Assembly: GCA_041672465.1 (NCBI GenBank)
Contig: JBAYZO010000005.1
Location: 4,686-68,685, forward strand
Origin: Eubacteriales bacterium
GTDB lineage: Bacteria > Bacillota > Clostridia > Oscillospirales > CAG-382
DNA: 64,000 nucleotides
Direction of reading: 5' to 3'
Translations under genes and position numbers: made by a program
The notes under the pieces: generated by a model
Seen by the model: the letters and a program-made list of their open reading frames with translations, nothing else
Databases searched by the model: none
What the model was told of the DNA's origin: nothing
In this document: positions 26,739 through 63,286 of the stretch, piece by piece
Layout of the letters: the number at the start of each line of letters is the position of its first letter
Numbering within the stretch: the first letter of the stretch is position 1

Positions 26739-29700
26739 TTAAAAGCTGTATAAAGCGGGGGTTACAATAGATTGGTCAAGCGTGCCATCGGTGGACGCCC
26801 AGTCGGGGCCGGCGCCGTCAATATAATGCACCTTTACCCCAATGGCGGTTTGGTCGCCGTGCTCCGGCGGGGTTCTTCCCAAGTTTGACCAAGGCATGGC
26901 GACAATAAACACCCCGTCTTTTTCGGTAAACGTAAAGTTTTTAATAAGCACGGCGGGGGACGCCGAGCCGCCGGCTGTCCAGCCTTTTTCGGTGCGGTGG
27001 ATATAATAGCGAAGTCCGTGGTCGTTGTCAAGCACGGAGGGCGCCGTCTTCCCCGTGGTCACCATCCAAATTTGAAGAAGGTCGTCTTTTCCCTCCCACC
27101 ACACTCCTTTGCCGTAGTTCGCGGTGGCGTCGTTTGTCCTGACGCAGACATAAAAGTTTTCGCTGTCATACGAATACGCGAAGAATAAGTCCGCGGCGGC
27201 GTTGTTTTTCTTAAAAGGCTGCCAGTTAAGCGCGTCAAGGTTTTCAGCCGATGGCGTTATGACGGTCAGCACCCCTTCGTTATAAACTTTGTCATATTTT
27301 TCGGGTTTTGTGACCTCGACAAGCCCCGATAAGTCAACCTTTTTGCCGTCGTCGGTTTGAACTTCCGGCCCGTCCGCCTTGCTCCCCGCCCCGTCAAGGG
27401 CGCGGAAAGAAGCGTAATACTTAACATAGTCCCGCATTATAAGGCGCTTGTAATAGTTTTGGACATTGTTAAAAGCGGCATAGGGGAAGGTTGTGAAGTA
27501 ATGCGGGATATCAAACACAATTATGCTCCCCGAAAGATAGGCTTCTATCCCAAGGGATTTGACAATCTCGTCATACCGCTTTGTGGTGTAAATCTGCTCA
27601 AAAATCTCCATATCGTGCCAGAACTCCGCGCCCGCTCTCCGGACTGCTTTCGCCCATTCGGAAACAAAAGACTCATATGAGTCAAACACGCCGTCTTCAA
27701 CATAAAGCGTGCCGAGCCTGCCGAGACAGTCCTGCGCGGCGACGATATCCGCCACCGGTCTTCCCCCCTCTTTGTCGGGCGCGATAAGCCGGTACAGGTT
27801 GTCAGCCCCCACGTCCGGCCTGCCGCTCTGCCAAATGGCGGGGGCGATCATAACTTTTGCTTCCGGGGAAATTTCGCGGATAAGGTCGGACTGGTTTTTA
27901 TAGACATATCTTCCCGCGTCGACCCCTCCCGTGAGGTTAAGCCAATAGTCGCACTCCTCGTCGGAGAGATAATAGCCCTCAAACGATTCATGGGTGTGAT
28001 ACATATCATAAATATCCCGAATAAGCAAAAACGAGTCGGCGACAATGTCTTTATAAGACTCCATGTTTGCTATCGGCGAGGAAAAATCGCTGTCGTGAAT
28101 AGTCCCGAGATACACCTTCATTCCAAGCTTATCGGCCGCCGAAAGTATAGACTCATAAAGGTCTTCTACGCCGTATGGCGAATATTTGTACCCCGCGCCG
28201 GTGATTCTCCTCCCGTTGACGGAAGTGGTTTGGGAAGAATAATTAGCGCTGTACTGCATTACGACATATTCCATTCCCAAGTCTTTCATTCCCTTAAGCT
28301 GGAGATACCACGAATAGTCGCTGTTGTTTGCGGAGGCGTTACTCCCCGCGCCGCTTGTCTGAAGCTGGAAAAACCCGCCCCTGACAAGGGGGAGCTGGGG
28401 CTGGGCGGCGTATACCGAAACTTCGGCAAACTTAGGCGCTTTTTGGGCGTTATAAGTAATTTTGACTTTTTGCGCTTTGGTTTCCTCAAAATATAAATAA
28501 ATATATGTGTTTTTACCGGCTTTGACTTTGTAGGTTGTAAAAGCGGTTTCCGCCCCGTCTAAAAACAACTTTATTTCCCCGTCTTCCGACCCCTCGACCG
28601 CTATCATCGCGCCGCATATGTCGTCATAGCTCTTGCTCAGCGATAAAGTTATTTCGTTTTCGCCCGAAACCCCCGATACGCTGACAGCAGCTTTAAGGTC
28701 GGTAAAGGCGGCAGACTCTTTGCCGTTAAGTTCCGCTTTTACAAAAGCGGCGGCATTGGTGTTGGAAAGCTGATTTTTGCGGTTTATAAAGCCGTAATCG
28801 GGTTCCGGCACGGGACTTTCCGAGCCGTAAATATAAACCTCATCAAGTAAAACAAGGGTTTGAGTGTAGGTAAAAATCTTAATATACCTCGCCCTTACGG
28901 TAAACGGGCGGGTGACGATATATTTTGACGAGGAATTTCCCCGCGCGCCGCTTTGCGAAGCGAGAAAAGACTGGCCGAGGTCTTCCCAGACAACGCCGTC
29001 CTCGGAATACCGCGCGTTTATCCTGTCCGGGAAGTTGCCCGACGAGTTTTGCGGGGTATAAATACCAAAGATAACCTCGGAAACGTTCTTTTCTTCTCCT
29101 AAGTCAAGAGTTATTACGCTCCCGGTTTTCCCCGTAAGGTCGTCTTTCGCCGAAGAGGTAAACCCCAAAACCGCCTGATCTCCCGATAAAATACAAGTGT
29201 CGCCGTCGGTCAGCTTGTTCCCGGTCTCGGGGTATTTGTCGCTTATCTTGCCGTCGATTGTATATTCCGCCGATAAAGAAAGCAGTTTTCTTTTATGCTC
29301 GCTTGAACCGAAGATTTTTATCTCGCTTACGCTTATTGTCTGTGTCGGGGTTATCGGGAGCACAAACATAACCGATTTCGCCGTTATCTCAAGGGTATCT
29401 TTAAGCAGGCCGCCCTCGTAAACGCCGAACTCCCCGGCGTAAAACGAGAAGTTATACCCGTCAGTGGAATAGAAAACCTCCGCTTTCTCTCCCGAATAGT
29501 CTTTTAGCGCCAGCTCAAAGTCCGTGATGTTTGATATGAATCCCAAATCGACGGTAATTGCCGCCGTGTCGTTTTTCAGGGTAATGGCCCGGCTTTGGCC
29601 GCTCCAGTCGGTGACTTGCAGGGTGTACCCGGATCCCTTGTCAAGACTTGTCGAAAGGCTCGCGTAGGTTTTTTCGCGGCCGTCGGTAAGTATGGTGAGC

Positions 29701-29972
29701 GAGTCGTCGCCGACGACTTTTATCCCGCAGTCATAAAAATAAGGGCATTTATAAGCTAAATTATTTTCGTCAGGCTCGGTTATTTCTTCCGAAACCTCCC
29801 CCGGTTGGCTTTCTCCGCCGGCGCTTGGGCCGATGCTTTCGCCGCCGGCGCTTGCGCCGATGCTTTCTACGCCGACGCTTTCCGGTTTTTCATCTGTTTT
29901 TCCGCATGACACCATCGCCACCCCCCCGAATAATAATAAAAGTATAAGACAAACTGAAAGTAATTTTTTCAT
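26739..29972 (-). CDS. Large secreted lipoprotein: discoidin-like domains, a DUF4434 (glycoside-hydrolase-like TIM barrel) domain, and a C-terminal carbohydrate-binding-like domain
   Basis: Lipobox VAMVSCG. The central segment YSWYLQLKGMKDLGMEYVVMQYS...LGMKVYLG resembles DUF4434. The domain calls are tentative. Confidence 0.5.
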   Translation of the reverse strand: MKKLLSVCLILLLLFGGVAMVSCGKTDEKPESVGVESIGASAGGESIGPSAGGESQPGEVSEEITEPDENNLAYKCPYFYDCGIKVVGDDSLTILTDGREKTYASLSTSLDKGSGYTLQVTDWSGQSRAITLKNDTAAITVDLGFISNITDFELALKDYSGEKAEVFYSTDGYNFSFYAGEFGVYEGGLLKDTLEITAKSVMFVLPITPTQTISVSEIKIFGSSEHKRKLLSLSAEYTIDGKISDKYPETGNKLTDGDTCILSGDQAVLGFTSSAKDDLTGKTGSVITLDLGEEKNVSEVIFGIYTPQNSSGNFPDRINARYSEDGVVWEDLGQSFLASQSGARGNSSSKYIVTRPFTVRARYIKIFTYTQTLVLLDEVYIYGSESPVPEPDYGFINRKNQLSNTNAAAFVKAELNGKESAAFTDLKAAVSVSGVSGENEITLSLSKSYDDICGAMIAVEGSEDGEIKLFLDGAETAFTTYKVKAGKNTYIYLYFEETKAQKVKITYNAQKAPKFAEVSVYAAQPQLPLVRGGFFQLQTSGAGSNASANNSDYSWYLQLKGMKDLGMEYVVMQYSANYSSQTTSVNGRRITGAGYKYSPYGVEDLYESILSAADKLGMKVYLGTIHDSDFSSPIANMESYKDIVADSFLLIRDIYDMYHTHESFEGYYLSDEECDYWLNLTGGVDAGRYVYKNQSDLIREISPEAKVMIAPAIWQSGRPDVGADNLYRLIAPDKEGGRPVADIVAAQDCLGRLGTLYVEDGVFDSYESFVSEWAKAVRRAGAEFWHDMEIFEQIYTTKRYDEIVKSLGIEAYLSGSIIVFDIPHYFTTFPYAAFNNVQNYYKRLIMRDYVKYYASFRALDGAGSKADGPEVQTDDGKKVDLSGLVEVTKPEKYDKVYNEGVLTVITPSAENLDALNWQPFKKNNAAADLFFAYSYDSENFYVCVRTNDATANYGKGVWWEGKDDLLQIWMVTTGKTAPSVLDNDHGLRYYIHRTEKGWTAGGSASPAVLIKNFTFTEKDGVFIVAMPWSNLGRTPPEHGDQTAIGVKVHYIDGAGPDWASTDGTLDQSIVTPALYSF
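29809..29885. repeat. 27-bp in-frame tandem repeat (about 2.7 copies) in the lipoprotein N-terminal linker
   Basis: ctttc(t/g)ccgccggcgcttg(g/c)gccgatg repeated. It encodes ESIGASAGG/ESIGPSAGG. Confidence 0.8.
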
Positions 29973-30070
29973 GAATATTTCTCCTTTTGGCTTTTGCGCG
30001 GAACGCGCTTTGTAAAACGACTAAGTAAAAAGTCAAGCTAAACATGAATCTGTTAAAACGCTGTGTAATA

Positions 30071-30099
30071 ATTATATCATCGCGCGGGGGCTAAGTCAA
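30071..30099 (-). promoter_or_regulatory. Sigma-A-type promoter for the large lipoprotein gene
   Basis: Minus strand: TTGACT, 17 nt, TATAAT. Confidence 0.5.
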
Positions 30100-30214
30100 T
30101 TATGAATTGATTTATTGATGCTTTTTGGGGTAAGCAAGTTAATTCAAAAAGTAAATGCAACAGTATATCAATACAAGAAGCGAATGAAGTGGCAAGTATC
30201 GAATGAAACGACGG

Positions 30215-30404
30215 GAAACGAATGAAGTCGTGGCTTCGCCACTAATGAAGTTTCGCTTTCAGCGAAATGAAGCGTTTGCTCCGCAAACATGAAGCGAAGC
30301 GCGCTCCTGCCCCTCATGTGCCGTCGAGGCACGCTTCATTTCTTCATTAGCGAAGCGGCTTCATGCGCCGATAGGCGCGCTTCATTGAAAAAAGCGCCAA
30401 AAGG
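30215..30404. repeat. 190-bp ATGAAGC/GCTTCAT module, copy 1
   Basis: Identical to 30494-30683 except for one base (30312 C versus 30591 T). Confidence 0.95.
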
Positions 30405-30493
30405 AAGTTTATTTTGTCAAGCAAAAACAAAAAAGATATGTAAGCAGTTTTATAGAAATGACGCCAATCATTTACTCTCCCGCAATTTCAAAA

Positions 30494-30683
30494 GAAACGA
30501 ATGAAGTCGTGGCTTCGCCACTAATGAAGTTTCGCTTTCAGCGAAATGAAGCGTTTGCTCCGCAAACATGAAGCGAAGCGCGCTCCTGCCTCTCATGTGC
30601 CGTCGAGGCACGCTTCATTTCTTCATTAGCGAAGCGGCTTCATGCGCCGATAGGCGCGCTTCATTGAAAAAAGCGCCAAAAGG
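30494..30683. repeat. 190-bp ATGAAGC/GCTTCAT module, copy 2 (ends 11 bp from the 3' end of tRNA-Val)
   Basis: Direct repeat of 30215-30404 at an offset of 279 bp. Confidence 0.95.
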
Positions 30684-30694
30684 CAGCTTTGTTC

Positions 30695-30770
30695 TGGTGG
30701 GGACTACAGGGCTTGAACCTGTGACCCCCTGCTTGTAAGGCAGGTGCTCTCCCGGCTGAGCTAAACCCCC
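30695..30770 (-). tRNA. tRNA-Val (anticodon UAC) with encoded CCA
   Basis: Cloverleaf folded by hand. Acceptor GGGGGTT/AGTCCCC (2 G-U pairs). D arm GCTC-AGCCGGGA-GAGC. Anticodon arm CCTGC-CTTACAA-GCAGG. T arm ACAGG-TTCAAGC-CCTGT, then ACCA. Confidence 0.9.
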
Positions 30771-30782
30771 GAAAACACGCGT

Positions 30783-30811
30783 ATTATACCACGCCTATTA
30801 ACCCTTGTCAA
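30783..30811 (-). promoter_or_regulatory. Consensus sigma-A promoter for tRNA-Val
   Basis: Minus strand: TTGACA, 17 nt, TGg-TATAAT. The -10 box ends 12 nt upstream of the tRNA 5' end. Confidence 0.65.
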
Positions 30812-30885
30812 CCCCGCAAAAAGGCTTTTTTTACGCTCCCCGCCGCCGCCCGAATAAAGCTTTGGACGGGAAAAAGTTGCCCGTT

Positions 30886-31908
30886 TTAGGTAAACTTAAA
30901 AGTTTTCAGCGTGTTTTCAAATTCAGGGGAATATTCTTCATACTCGCTGTCGTCAGAGGTGAAAAGGATTGAAAAAACATACCCCTCTTTTATACAAATA
31001 ACCTGAATATACCGGTAGGTTTCGCCCGACATTTCAATGGTGTATTCTTTTCGGGACGCGACCACCCCGCCGACGACAGGCTCTTTGTCTTTGAACTCTT
31101 TGGTAAGAGTGTACCCCGGGTAAGCGGAGACAAGCTCTTTTTCATATTCTTCCCAATAGTCGTACACCCCGTAGGAAGCTTTTGCCGAGGGGAGAGAAAA
31201 CGCTTGCACGGAAATTGTGGCAAGGCCGTTCTCAGGTTTGACGGCTATCATTCCGTCGCCGCTTACCTCCGCCCAACCCCGCGAATAGTCAAAATAATAG
31301 TCTTTGTTAAGGCTTGCCGCCCTCCCCCCCGACTGTTTGCTCTCACCCGTGTCGGGGACTATCGGAATAAACTCAAAGGTTTCTATTACTTTTTCAAAAC
31401 AATCGATATAATTTTTAAACCCCTCCGCGCCGCTTGTGAGGAGAATGTTGTAAACAATGTTGTCTTTTATACAAAAAACCTGCGCGTATTTGTACTCCTC
31501 GCCCCCCACCGACGCAGTGTACTCCACCCTTACGGCGCTCACGCCTCCGAGCGTGGGGATGTCTTCGCCGCTATACTCTTTTTTCAGCGAATAGCCCTCA
31601 AAAGTGGTTTTCAAAGACGACTGATACGCCTCCCAATAAGCGTCGGCGTCCGCCGCCTCCGTGAACTCGGAAGTGGCGGTTATCATCGCGTTTGACACGC
31701 CCTTGACGTCCGGCGAGGGCTTGATTGCCAAGGCGTGGTACGCCTTGTTTTCCACCCAGTCGTCGTTATAATAAAACGAAAAACCAAAGGCGTCGCTTTT
31801 GATTTGTTTGTCGCTCCCCGCCCCGTTCCCCGAACAGGAAAAAGCGGAAAATACCATAACAGCCCCAAGCGCCGCTGATAAAAAATGTTTTAGTTTTAAG
31901 TTTTTCAT
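30886..31908 (-). CDS. Lipoprotein with two internally duplicated PsbP/DcrB-like domains (hypothetical)
   Basis: Lipobox AFSCS. The two halves align: EYKYAQVFCIKDNIVYNILLTS...TFEF versus TYRYIQVICIKEGYVFSILFTS...TFKF. Confidence 0.45.
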   Translation of the reverse strand: MKNLKLKHFLSAALGAVMVFSAFSCSGNGAGSDKQIKSDAFGFSFYYNDDWVENKAYHALAIKPSPDVKGVSNAMITATSEFTEAADADAYWEAYQSSLKTTFEGYSLKKEYSGEDIPTLGGVSAVRVEYTASVGGEEYKYAQVFCIKDNIVYNILLTSGAEGFKNYIDCFEKVIETFEFIPIVPDTGESKQSGGRAASLNKDYYFDYSRGWAEVSGDGMIAVKPENGLATISVQAFSLPSAKASYGVYDYWEEYEKELVSAYPGYTLTKEFKDKEPVVGGVVASRKEYTIEMSGETYRYIQVICIKEGYVFSILFTSDDSEYEEYSPEFENTLKTFKFT

Positions 31909-63051: not shown

Positions 63052-63057
63052 AAAGGC

Positions 63058-63203
63058 GCAGAGTAAAAAAATTTGCGTATGGCGTATGGTTTTATTCAAA
63101 CTGTATTGTAGTGCTCCGCGAACGGGGAGTTGACGCGGGGACGAAGTGAAGCTTACCACAAAAAAATGGTTGCTTCCGCGGTAAATTTTTTGCATCCCGC
63201 TGT
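63058..63203 (+). promoter_or_regulatory. THF (folT-motif)-like riboswitch with an enlarged internal region
   Basis: The 5' side GCAGAGTA-AAAAAAATTT-GCGT and the 3' side CCGCGGT-AAATTTTTT-GCATCCCGCTG parallel the recalled THF aptamer (GGAGAGUAG-AUGAUUC-GCGU ... GCGCGGU-GAAUCAU-UGCAUCCGCUCC). An internal GGGGACGAAG is also present. Confidence 0.55.
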
Positions 63204-63286
63204 AAAAGGCGTGTTGTTTGTCAACACGTCTTATAACGGATATTTGCTCTCTGCACCATCGTAAAAAAACGAAAGGTGTATTTTTT

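What the first reader, a model, noticed from the sequence alone, without database searches (positions are those of the whole stretch)
30175..30694. Duplicated 190-bp module of ATGAAGC/GCTTCAT 7-mers and unique mini-hairpins, abutting the 3' end of tRNA-Val
What the sequence shows:
- Segments 30215-30404 and 30494-30683 are direct repeats with 189/190 identity, offset by 279 bp and separated by a unique 89-bp spacer.
- Copy 2 ends 11 bp from the CCA end of tRNA-Val.
- Each module is internally symmetric. The left half has four (A)ATGAAG(Y) words in direct orientation at 22-23 bp spacing (30222, 30245, 30267, 30289). The right half has four (R)CTTCAT(T) words in the opposite orientation (30334, 30343, 30359, 30380).
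- Between the words sit short GC hairpins, each with a different sequence: gtggc-ttc-gccac, ttcgc-tttca-gcgaa, gtttgc-tcc-gcaaac, gtgcc-gtcga-ggcac and gcgcc-gata-ggcgc.
- Three further cgaatgaa words at 19-20 bp spacing precede copy 1 (30181, 30200, 30219).

Possible readings (inference):
- Pairing left words with right words would give a long rod of 7-8 bp helices with hairpins branching from both strands. Two of these helices close with T-G pairs that are tolerated only in plus-strand RNA.
- Alternatively, the ~2-helical-turn word spacing looks like an iteron or centromere-like protein-binding array.

I do not recognise this as any described repeat, ncRNA or att site, and no mobile-element genes flank it.
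Basis: partly seen in the sequence, partly recalled or inferred. Interest (0 to 1): 0.7.

Follow-up and report, generated by a model that had tools for sequence, protein, structure and literature searches.

The report
Orphan binding-word array behind tRNA-Val
The duplicated 190-bp module is a gene-less copy of an apparently undescribed DNA element (short conserved words separated by variable GC hairpins) that sits just behind tRNA genes in gut Clostridia and normally precedes a small four-helix-bundle gene of unknown function, the same protein family found inside 23S rRNA intervening sequences.

Summary
There are two modules (30215-30404 and 30494-30683, 189/190 identical), each with an ATGAAG arm and a CTTCAT arm separated by unique GC hairpins, lying downstream of tRNA-Val on the minus strand.

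It is neither a one-off duplication nor any Rfam RNA. The same strain-level locus in other metagenomes carries 1, 2 or at least 3 modules. Pattern scans found over 120 related modules in gut, rumen and digester Clostridia. About a third of them abut the terminator of a tRNA, always in the same polarity, and one relative from the genome scan abuts a tmRNA.

The main result is that relatives are followed by a PF05635/TIGR02436 four-helix-bundle gene (23S-rRNA-IVS protein, Avd-like). All four homologues picked by protein similarity alone showed tRNA (one a 3' fragment), terminator, module, gene. The word tracks the protein clade:
- Clostridial clade A uses TAATGAAG.
- Clostridial clade B uses GTATGTAATC.
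- Bacteroidota genes are flanked by inverted AATTCAY heptamer arrays.

Hairpin stems are essentially pure Watson-Crick with no wobble bias. I read the window element as two orphan word arrays of an IVS-like cassette, with the words as protein recognition sites, probably for the four-helix-bundle pentamer. The family assignment is strong. The binder, the DNA-versus-RNA level and the mode of spread are inferred.

The parts
30783..30811 (-). Sigma-70-type promoter of tRNA-Val (TTGACA-17-TATAAT)
   Evidence: 12/12 match with an upstream TG.
30695..30770 (-). tRNA-Val (anticodon TAC)
   Evidence: ARAGORN; Rfam RF00005, 67 bits.
30667..30694 (.). Intrinsic terminator between the tRNA and module copy 2 (AAAAAAGCGCC-AAAA-GGCAGC-TTTGTTC on +). 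Other strains have the perfect bidirectional form GAAAAAAGCGCCTTTTGGCGCTTTTTTC.
   Evidence: Sequence; alignment A1. The same A-tract/stem/T-tract follows the module in all tRNA-linked relatives.
30494..30666 (.). Module copy 2 (tRNA-proximal). ATGAAG arm 30498-30574, centre 30575-30612, CTTCAT arm 30613-30666. The words are separated by unique GC hairpins and a GCGAAGC mini-hairpin.
   Evidence: Collinear with the 4HB-linked modules of L184 (A2).
30411..30493 (.). Unique spacer B between the two modules; no match in any other locus family.
   Evidence: Present in L003 and L004, absent from L001.
30388..30410 (.). Decayed copy of the terminator attached to module copy 1 (AAAAAAGCGCCAAAAGGAAGTTT on +). 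One arm of the stem is lost.
30215..30387 (.). Module copy 1 (distal). ATGAAG arm 30219-30295, centre 30296-30333, CTTCAT arm 30334-30387.
30175..30214 (.). Two further CGAATGAA(G/A) words (30181, 30200) at 19-bp spacing without hairpins, continuous with the first word of copy 1 (30219). Probably a decayed arm; also present in the single-module strain L001.
   Evidence: family D3.
30071..30099 (-). Promoter of the downstream DUF4434/F5_F8 lipoprotein gene (26739-29972, minus), about 80 bp beyond the last word. This is context, not part of the element.
   Evidence: 11/12 match; Pfam.

Best explanation
Each 190-bp module is a gene-less ('solo') copy of the cis-acting word array that accompanies PF05635/TIGR02436 four-helix-bundle genes (4HB; 23S-rRNA-IVS protein, Avd-like).

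**The complete unit in Clostridia**
- Order: stable-RNA gene (tRNA or tmRNA), then a bidirectional intrinsic terminator, then an array of about 4 words in one orientation, a short centre, about 4 words in the opposite orientation, usually a promoter, and then the 4HB gene.
- The words (TAATGAAG / CTTCATTA here) are sequence-specific recognition sites. They are spaced about 21-23 bp apart by GC hairpins whose sequence is free but whose complementarity and GNA/GNRA loops are kept.

**What I infer**
- The words are bound by the cognate homopentameric 4HB protein supplied in trans.
- Binding most likely occurs on DNA, as an operator-like or terminal-inverted-repeat-like array.
- The unit behaves as an IVS-like selfish cassette that lodges just behind terminators of highly transcribed RNA genes.
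- In this genome the tRNA-Val site holds two orphan arrays. They arose by repeated addition at the tRNA-proximal end and/or by loss of the gene between arrays, and their number varies between strains.

**Shown versus inferred**
- Shown: family membership, tRNA linkage, 4HB linkage, word/clade covariation, hairpin conservation without wobble pairs, and copy-number polymorphism.
- Inferred: the identity of the binder, the DNA-versus-RNA level, and the mode of spread.
For: **1. Polymorphism.** The identical locus carries 1 module (L001), 2 (window; L003 at least 2) or at least 3 (L004). The extra unit and a new unique spacer lie next to the tRNA.

**3. tRNA linkage.** Of 88 non-redundant loci with enough flank, 20 have a full tRNA (Arg, Gln, Ser, Leu, Tyr, Pro, Asn) and 8 a tRNA 3' fragment just beyond the terminator. 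Polarity is always the same. L095 has a tmRNA instead.

**4. 4HB linkage.**
- A PF05635/TIGR02436 gene lies next to the module in 13 motif-scan loci and in L018, L095 and L097. It is on the tRNA strand, directly after the module in 11 of the 13.
- Reverse test: four homologues chosen only by protein similarity and contig length all show tRNA (Lys, Val, Ser, or a 3' fragment), terminator, module, 4HB gene.

**5. Word/protein covariation.**
- 15 of 15 clade-A genes have 4-14 NTGAAG-type words and no GATTACA words upstream.
- 4 of 4 clade-B genes have 4-6 TGTAATC/GATTACA words and no ATGAAG words.
- Both clades sit side by side in one genome, L252.
- A Bacteroidota clade is flanked by inverted arrays of AATTCAY heptamers whose number differs between strains. 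L101 uses GGAGTTC/GAACTCC.

**6. Homology of the window module.** It is collinear with the tandem modules that precede a 4HB gene in L184, with compensatory hairpin changes (A2).

**7. Hairpins.**
- 54% of inter-word intervals hold a perfect hairpin of at least 5 bp, against 1.9% after shuffling, with 33 distinct stems.
- There are 838 Watson-Crick pairs against 5 G-T and 5 A-C.
- Loops are GAA/GCAA/GCA on the CTTCAT-reading strand of each arm.

**8. Position.** In most 4HB loci a sigma-70-like promoter lies in the 50-120 nt between the last word and the ATG (my reading of the printed sequences). This is a typical operator position.

**9. Precedents.**
- IVSs are parasitic stem-loop elements, some carrying the S23p ORF, and S23p is a toroidal homopentamer (PMC4990558).
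- The Avd-containing DGR needs a DNA hairpin with a sequence-free GC stem and a strand-specific GRNA loop (PMC3240598).
Against: - No 4HB gene lies in the 64-kb window (tblastn), and I could not check the rest of the genome. Action in trans is therefore assumed.
- Word/clade covariation could partly reflect co-inheritance of gene and array rather than direct binding.
- In L095, L250, L253 and L247 the last word is only 16-23 nt from the start codon. There the array must be transcribed, which fits an RNA-level role.
- No binding, transcription or mobility data exist.
- No transposase, integrase or target-site duplication was seen, so 'cassette that lodges behind terminators' rests only on distribution and polymorphism.
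- The mirror-symmetric loop preference is not explained by a plain duplex-DNA operator.
Confidence: 0.6

Rival explanations
1. The module acts as RNA. Read-through from the tRNA promoter transcribes it, the ATGAAG and CTTCAT words pair into an extended branched stem, and RNase III cuts that stem, as in 23S rRNA intervening sequences. Alternatively it is a structured leader that controls 4HB translation. On this view the words are conserved mainly to keep the arms complementary.
For: - Both strands fold far better than shuffles, z about -4.5.
- IVSs with the same ORF family are bordered by complementary sequences cut by RNase III (PMC4990558).
- In Bacteroidota the arrays flank the ORF like an IVS stem.
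- In L095, L250, L253 and L247 the array reaches to 16-23 nt from the ATG, so it must be in the mRNA.
Against: - Hairpins show no wobble tolerance or strand bias: 5 G-T and 5 A-C against 838 Watson-Crick pairs.
- Bacteroidota arms have 2 G-T, 5 A-C and 17 other mismatches.
- Words are invariant within a clade instead of covarying freely.
- L018 and L097 carry the array in inverted orientation and upstream of a separate promoter.
- A strong terminator precedes the array.
- No Rfam match.
Confidence: 0.22
2. It is a host-beneficial insulator. A stack of extra hairpins, possibly with a roadblock protein, sits behind a very strongly transcribed tRNA gene and protects the downstream DUF4434 gene from read-through in both directions.
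For: - It always lies between a terminator and the next gene.
- GC hairpins followed by CTTCATTT score as weak terminators.
- The promoter of the next gene lies about 80 bp further on.
Against: - It does not explain the clade-specific words, the linkage to PF05635 genes, the Bacteroidota version inside operons, or why closely related strains differ from 1 to at least 3 copies.
- Most hairpins lack a U-tract.
Confidence: 0.08
3. It is an att site remnant. The words are arm-type binding sites of a tyrosine integrase/excisionase of an element that integrates at the 3' end of tRNA genes, and the tandem copies are scars of successive integrations.
For: - The position is at tRNA 3' ends.
- New units are added next to the tRNA.
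- Some loci have only a tRNA 3' fragment.
- Three hits lie in IMG/VR contigs.
Against: - No integrase lies beside the module in the window: the five nearest genes have unrelated Pfam domains.
- None appeared among the genes called in the four clade-A 4HB loci, and none was noted in the relatives inspected.
- At least 11 different tRNA species plus a tmRNA are used.
- Unit junctions share only AGAA with the tRNA end.
- The same words occur in arrays far from any tRNA.
- Structure-conserving hairpins are not a feature of arm sites.
- The tRNA fragments are better explained as attR sites of unrelated prophages that displaced the tRNA flank.
Confidence: 0.04
4. It is an uninteresting strain-specific tandem duplication, an assembly artefact, or a classical MITE/REP.
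For: - Two near-identical copies.
- Contigs often break at such loci (many 4HB contigs are under 2 kb).
Against: - Independent assemblies from ENA, JGI and Logan reproduce the locus with 1, 2 and at least 3 copies and with different spacers.
- The family is conserved across several families of Clostridia with structure-preserving changes.
- No target-site duplication, no transposase, and no REP-like conserved hairpin sequence.
Confidence: 0.03

Closest known systems
Intervening sequences (IVS) of 23S/16S rRNA genes, with or without the S23p ORF (Coxiella, Leptospira, Salmonella; PMC4990558, PMC11270868)
   Same: - Same associated protein family (PF05635, a homopentameric four-helix bundle).
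- Both are bordered by or built from inverted complementary sequences.
- Both are tied to stable-RNA transcription units.
- Both are sporadic and strain-variable, and gene-less versions exist.
- Both are regarded as parasitic, with function unknown.
   Different: - The element lies outside the mature RNA, behind the terminator of tRNA/tmRNA genes; in Bacteroidota it lies between genes of an operon.
- In Clostridia both arms lie upstream of the ORF instead of flanking it.
- The arms are arrays of a clade-specific 7-10-nt word separated by variable GC hairpins.
- RNase III excision is untested, and the pairing statistics do not look RNA-like.
DGR target-site hairpin/cruciform acting with Avd and RT (PMC3240598)
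   Same: - A PF05635-like protein (Avd) belongs to the system.
- A GC-rich stem of free sequence with a conserved, strand-specific GRNA/GNA loop acts at the DNA level.
   Different: - No RT, TR/VR or IMH is present.
- There are many hairpins per element, interleaved with conserved words.
- The DGR uses a single hairpin downstream of VR.
Iteron and operator arrays, or TRAP-type multi-site binding by ring-shaped oligomers
   Same: - Repeated short words at about two helical turns (Clostridia) or as 7-nt tandem units (Bacteroidota).
- The number of words per arm (about 4-5) is similar to the subunit number of the pentamer.
- The position is next to the promoter or RBS of the gene for the presumed binder.
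   Different: - No replication or partition genes.
- Inverted two-arm layout.
- Spacers are conserved hairpins.
- Binding has not been shown.
MITEs and mosaic intergenic repeats (BOX, BIME/REP, NIME)
   Same: - Multi-copy, intergenic, modular, palindromic and variable in number.
- Gene-less derivatives coexist with gene-bearing units.
   Different: - No transposase or RAYT, and no target-site duplication.
- Hairpin sequences are not conserved between copies at different loci; only the words are.
- Strong preference for the 3' flank of tRNA terminators.

Membership tests
rRNA intervening sequence (IVS) | Inserted in a helix of a 16S/23S rRNA gene and transcribed within the precursor | tested here: not met
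   The element lies downstream of tRNA-Val and its terminator, and there is no rRNA in the window.
rRNA intervening sequence (IVS) | [quoted passage not shown] | tested here: met
   The arms are inverted (I4-I7). Folds have z about -4.5. Bacteroidota relatives have 30-76-nt inverted arms around the ORF.
rRNA intervening sequence (IVS) | Excised from the transcript by RNase III | not testable with these tools
   Needs RNA mapping or an in vitro RNase III assay.
rRNA intervening sequence (IVS) | May carry an S23p / PF05635 ORF | tested here: not met
   There is no PF05635 homologue in the window. Relatives of the module do carry one.
PF05635-associated word array (family defined here) | Two inverted arms of at least 3 copies of one short word, with GC hairpins between words (Clostridial form) | tested here: met
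PF05635-associated word array (family defined here) | Sequence homology to arrays that directly precede a PF05635 gene | tested here: met
   Alignment A2 with L184. Shared core motif with 13 4HB-linked loci.
PF05635-associated word array (family defined here) | Starts right after an intrinsic terminator, often that of a tRNA | tested here: met
PF05635-associated word array (family defined here) | Words bound by the cognate 4HB protein | not testable with these tools
   Only covariation of word and protein clade is available.
MITE | Terminal inverted repeats plus a target-site duplication, with a related transposase-bearing parent | tested here: not met
   Inverted arms are present. No duplication was seen at the unit junctions, and none of the relatives inspected showed a transposase gene.
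REP/BIME | Conserved hairpin sequence with a GTAG-type head, and a RAYT gene in the genome | tested here: not met
   Hairpin sequences differ at every position, with 33 distinct stems. The RAYT was not searched for genome-wide.
Known structured RNAs (Rfam 15, including ROOL, GOLLD, raiA, 6S) | Covariance-model match at the gathering score | tested here: not met
   Only tRNA and a THF riboswitch were found in the window. At E up to 10, only chance-level microRNA-type hits appeared. There was nothing on 13 related loci.
Plasmid iterons or centromere | Direct repeats next to rep or par genes on a replicon | tested here: not met
   The context is chromosomal sugar-metabolism genes, and the five nearest genes include no rep or par gene.
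Integrase att site with arm-type sites | Adjacent integrase, and a core identical to the tRNA 3' end repeated at the junctions | tested here: not met
   The five nearest genes include no integrase. The junctions share only AGAA.
DGR target hairpin | GC stem with GRNA loop downstream of a VR, with a TR and an RT nearby | tested here: inconclusive
   The hairpin features are met. TR/VR and RT were not searched for systematically, and none is evident next to the module.

The most novel reading that the evidence does not exclude
PF05635 four-helix-bundle proteins may be sequence-programmed nucleic-acid binders. Each clade would recognise its own 7-10-nt word, one word per subunit of the pentameric ring. 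Gene plus inverted word arrays would then form a new, transposase-less kind of selfish cassette that colonises terminator-proximal flanks of tRNA/tmRNA genes, operon spacers and rRNA helices. On this reading the rRNA IVSs are one special case of the cassette, and the window holds two orphan arrays still served in trans.
Probability: 0.35. Interest if true: 0.9.

Novelty: new variant of a known kind. Interest (0 to 1): 0.75.

Why it matters
PF05635 / 'four helix bundle protein' is a very large family: 8,382 clusters at 50% identity match at E up to 0.001. Its members have been known since the 1990s from rRNA intervening sequences and, as Avd, from diversity-generating retroelements. The free-standing members still have no known function or ligand (PMC4990558, PMC11270868, PMC3936711).

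The arrays found here give that family a concrete candidate ligand: a clade-specific word, with clear predictions of cross-specificity. They connect rRNA IVSs, tRNA-flank cassettes and operon-embedded cassettes in one picture. They may also help explain why assemblies of gut Clostridia often break at these loci.

For annotation, they define a recognisable non-coding element that recurs in gut, rumen and digester metagenomes and that no Rfam model covers.

Tried and rejected
- **Rfam.** The whole window at gathering score, and 29900-30900 at E up to 10, gave nothing but tRNA and chance microRNA-like hits. Thirteen related loci gave nothing on the arrays.
- **First viral scan.** A strict three-word pattern gave 0 hits.
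- **Spacers A and B and the distal flank.** No match anywhere else, so their origin is unresolved. The idea that spacer B is a remnant of a 4HB promoter rests only on a shared TTGACAAAAT and was dropped.
- **Antisense sRNA ending at the shared terminator.** No consistent promoter exists on that strand, and in 4HB loci that side is occupied by the gene.
- **RNA strand test by wobble pairs.** No bias in Clostridial hairpins or in Bacteroidota arms.
- **Integrase/att reading.** Rejected: the genes nearest the module include no integrase, many different tRNAs are used, and there is no repeated core.
- **4HB genes near the AATGAAG heptamer arrays of Bacteroidota.** None was found, apart from L101, whose 4HB gene carries a different word.
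- **Literature.** Five searches found no description of these arrays.
Full report
**1. What is in the window**

The intergenic region 29973-30885 lies between a 340-aa DcrB-like gene (30886-31908, minus) and a 1077-aa DUF4434/F5_F8 lipoprotein gene (26739-29972, minus). On the minus strand the order is:
- a perfect sigma-70 promoter (30811-30783);
- tRNA-Val(TAC) at 30695-30770;
- a terminator;
- module copy 2, then an 83-bp unique spacer, then a decayed terminator copy, then module copy 1;
- two more hairpin-less words;
- about 80 bp further on, the promoter of the lipoprotein gene (30099-30071).

The two modules are 189/190 identical over 30215-30404 and 30494-30683. Each has four ATGAAG words and then four CTTCAT words on the plus strand, with a different GC hairpin in nearly every interval. 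Seventeen of the 30 ATGAAG/CTTCAT hexamers of the 64-kb window lie in these 520 bp.

**2. Not a private duplication**

Looking up the exact 340-aa neighbour protein returned five independent assemblies of the same locus. Aligned (A1), they are identical outside the element but differ inside it:
- L001 carries one module.
- The window carries two, and L003 at least two.
- L004 carries at least three.

In L004 the additional unit (terminator, module and a new unique 39-52-bp spacer) sits directly after the CCA end of the tRNA. New units are therefore found at the tRNA-proximal end. Neither spacer matches anything else I fetched.

**3. A large family**

It still revealed true relatives in Oscillospiraceae, Acutalibacteraceae and unclassified Clostridia MAGs. 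Those relatives share the core CTTCATTAGCGAAGCGNCTTCAT.

Read with the core on the top strand, the consensus unit is:
- (TAATGAAG + GC hairpin) x 2-5;
- CTAATGAAGCGAAGTCGCCC, about 10 variable nt, then AATTAGC-hairpin-GCGTCTTCATTTCTTCATTAGCGAAGCGTCTTCATT(CCTTCATT)AG-hairpin-CGACTTCATTG;
- A-tract, variable stem, T-tract;
- the 3' end of a tRNA on the other strand.

Of 88 non-redundant loci with enough flank, 20 have a complete tRNA (Arg, Gln, Ser, Leu, Tyr, Pro, Asn) and 8 a tRNA 3' fragment at that position, always in that polarity. One relative from the genome scan follows a tmRNA (L095). The fragments are best read as attR sites of unrelated integrated elements that displaced the old tRNA flank. 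That also explains the three IMG/VR hits.

No Rfam family matches the window element or 13 related loci.

**4. Anatomy under selection**

The words are nearly invariant across modules whose hairpins share no sequence.
- The intervals between words contain a perfect hairpin of at least 5 bp in 54% of cases, against 1.9% after shuffling, with 33 different stems.
- Shorter intervals hold GCGAAGC-type mini-hairpins.
- In 163 hairpins I counted 838 Watson-Crick pairs, 5 G-T and 5 A-C. Wobble pairs are neither tolerated nor biased to one strand.
- Loops are TTC/TCC/TTT in the ATGAAG arm and GAA/GCAA/GCA/GATA in the CTTCAT arm. Read on the CTTCAT strand of each arm they are GNA/GNRA, so the preference is mirror-symmetric.
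- Alignment of the window module with the modules of L184 shows collinearity with compensatory changes: GTGGC-GAA-GCCAC versus CCGGC-GAA-GCCGG, and CGC-TGAAA-GCG versus CGGC-GAAA-GCCG (A2).

**5. The link to a protein family**

In L018, L095 and L097 the far side of the module is a small gene that Pfam and NCBIfam assign to PF05635 (23S_rRNA_IVP) and TIGR02436 ('four helix bundle protein'), E 6e-27 and 1e-30. Its closest solved structure is 2RLD.

tblastn found such a gene in 13 of the motif-scan loci, always on the tRNA strand. In 11 of them it starts 35-640 bp beyond the core motif, that is, right after one or several modules.

As a reverse test I searched for homologues of the protein and looked up four of them, chosen only for their long contigs. 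All four (L248, L250, L252, L253) show promoter, tRNA (Lys, Val, Ser, or a 3' fragment), bidirectional terminator, word/hairpin module, 4HB gene.

**6. The word follows the protein clade**

L252 carries a second, 41%-identical paralogue. It is preceded by a module of the same architecture but built from TATGTAATC / GATTACATA.

Homologues of that paralogue, looked up in three more places, all have GATTACA-type arrays. One of them, seen in several assemblies (L259-L262), lies behind tRNA-His.

In the tabulation:
- 15 of 15 non-redundant clade-A genes have 4-14 NTGAAG-type words and no GATTACA words in the 350 bp upstream.
- 4 of 4 clade-B genes show the reverse.

A third clade from Bacteroidota sits inside operons (araD-4HB-araA, MFS-4HB-SSF). 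It is flanked by inverted arrays of tandem heptamers: (AATTCAT/AATTCAC/AATTGAC)n upstream and their complements downstream. The arms are 30-76 nt long and 76-91% complementary, and the number of units differs between strains. L101 shows the same layout with GGAGTTC/GAACTCC.

Two different word types coexist in one genome, and the only clade-specific protein in the unit is the 4HB protein. The simplest reading is therefore that the 4HB protein recognises the word. Co-inheritance alone would not keep the words invariant while the hairpins turn over.

**7. DNA or RNA?**

In favour of DNA:
- There is no wobble signal in Clostridial hairpins or in Bacteroidota arms, which have 2 G-T, 5 A-C and 17 other mismatches.
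- The element has dyad symmetry.
- L018 and L097 carry the array in the opposite orientation.
- In most 4HB loci a good sigma-70-like promoter (for example TTTACA-17-TATAAT in L248, TTGACG-17-TATGAT in L197, TGCTATACT in L258 and L259) lies between the last word and the ATG, by my reading of the sequences printed. The array therefore occupies an operator-like position.
- The 21-23-bp word spacing equals three heptamer units of the Bacteroidota form, which puts the words on one face of the helix.

In favour of RNA:
- In L095, L250, L253 and L247 the last word is 16-23 nt from the ATG.
- The known IVSs are RNA stems cut by RNase III (PMC4990558).

A published precedent exists for a DNA hairpin with a free GC stem and a strand-specific GRNA loop working with a PF05635-like protein: the DGR target site (PMC3240598). 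I favour DNA-level recognition but cannot exclude an RNA role. The mirror-symmetric loop bias remains unexplained.

**8. How the copies arise**

- L182 shows tRNA, terminator, module, 4HB gene plus one ORF, then a second, older copy beginning with CCA-like sequence and terminator and ending in a truncated module fused to a 4HB fragment.
- L184 shows 3.5 tandem modules with a constant linker in front of the gene.

The two-module state in the window, with a unique spacer and a decayed terminator copy, fits repeated addition at the tRNA end followed by loss of the gene-bearing interior. Unequal recombination between modules would change the copy number further. I saw no recombinase gene in the loci inspected and no target-site duplication at the junctions, so the mechanism of spread is unknown.

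**9. Comparison with known elements and novelty**

The closest known entities are the rRNA intervening sequences. They are parasitic stem-loop insertions, some with the S23p ORF, of unknown function (PMC4990558, PMC11270868). PF05635 genes have also been noted scattered in cas loci (PMC3936711).

What appears new:
- the word-array architecture;
- the clade-specific words;
- the residence behind tRNA/tmRNA terminators and inside operons;
- the existence of orphan arrays such as this one.

Five literature searches found no description of it.

I class it as a new variant of a known kind. There is a substantial chance (about 0.35) that it represents a distinct protein-word system of which the IVSs are a special case.

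**10. Verdict**

- The RNA-rod idea is not supported as the primary constraint. The protein-binding-array idea is supported in modified form.
- Family assignment has high confidence, about 0.85.
- The proposed mechanism has moderate confidence: 0.6 for the overall statement and about 0.5 for 4HB as the binder.

Noticed in passing
window 63057-63204 (+): THF (tetrahydrofolate) riboswitch aptamer, Rfam RF01831, 47 bits against a gathering score of 36.
   Followed up: no
window 29808-29888: Three 27-bp tandem repeats (GCTTTCNCCGCCGGCGCTTG.GCCGAT) inside the 5' end of the DUF4434 lipoprotein gene. They encode a repeated (S/P)AGGESIG linker just after the lipoprotein signal peptide.
   Followed up: no
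L017, L060, L063, L109, L118, L121 (Bacteroidota genome loci): Gene-less inverted arrays of pure (G)AATGAA(G) heptamers. One lies directly behind tRNA-Thr (L121). They use the same core word as Clostridial clade A, but no PF05635 gene lies within 8 kb. They may be orphan arrays of a Bacteroidota clade.
   Followed up: partly
L129, L132, L219, L221, L224, L229, L231, L252: The module and terminator are followed only by the last 30-45 nt of a tRNA. This looks like attR junctions of integrated elements that supplied a new tRNA 3' end elsewhere.
   Followed up: partly
L252 1-3500: Two PF05635 paralogues of different clades lie back to back, each with its own word array, next to a NACHT-domain gene and HTH genes.
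   Followed up: partly
L258 2396-2464 and 3054-3132: Two Gut-1 RNA motifs (RF01706, 62 and 74 bits) lie just downstream of a clade-B 4HB cassette.
   Followed up: no
P0235, P0450 and many hits: Most contigs carrying these 4HB genes are under 2 kb (for example 79 of 91 index blocks for P0235). This suggests that the arrays or genes are repeated within genomes and break short-read assemblies.
   Followed up: no
L028 4425-5200 and L085 2880-3330 (Clostridia MAG RGIG6112): Long runs of other word-plus-hairpin units (ATTTCAC / ATTTCAT words with GC hairpins), plus a repeated 'ccacctcatccgtcttcgcgg...' block, lie next to the CTTCAT words. Composite or nested arrays are possible.
   Followed up: no
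L182, second unit: The first hairpin of the module is expanded to about 70 nt (tcgccccgccctcgggg...ggccggcggggc), as if something had inserted into or grown out of a hairpin.
   Followed up: no
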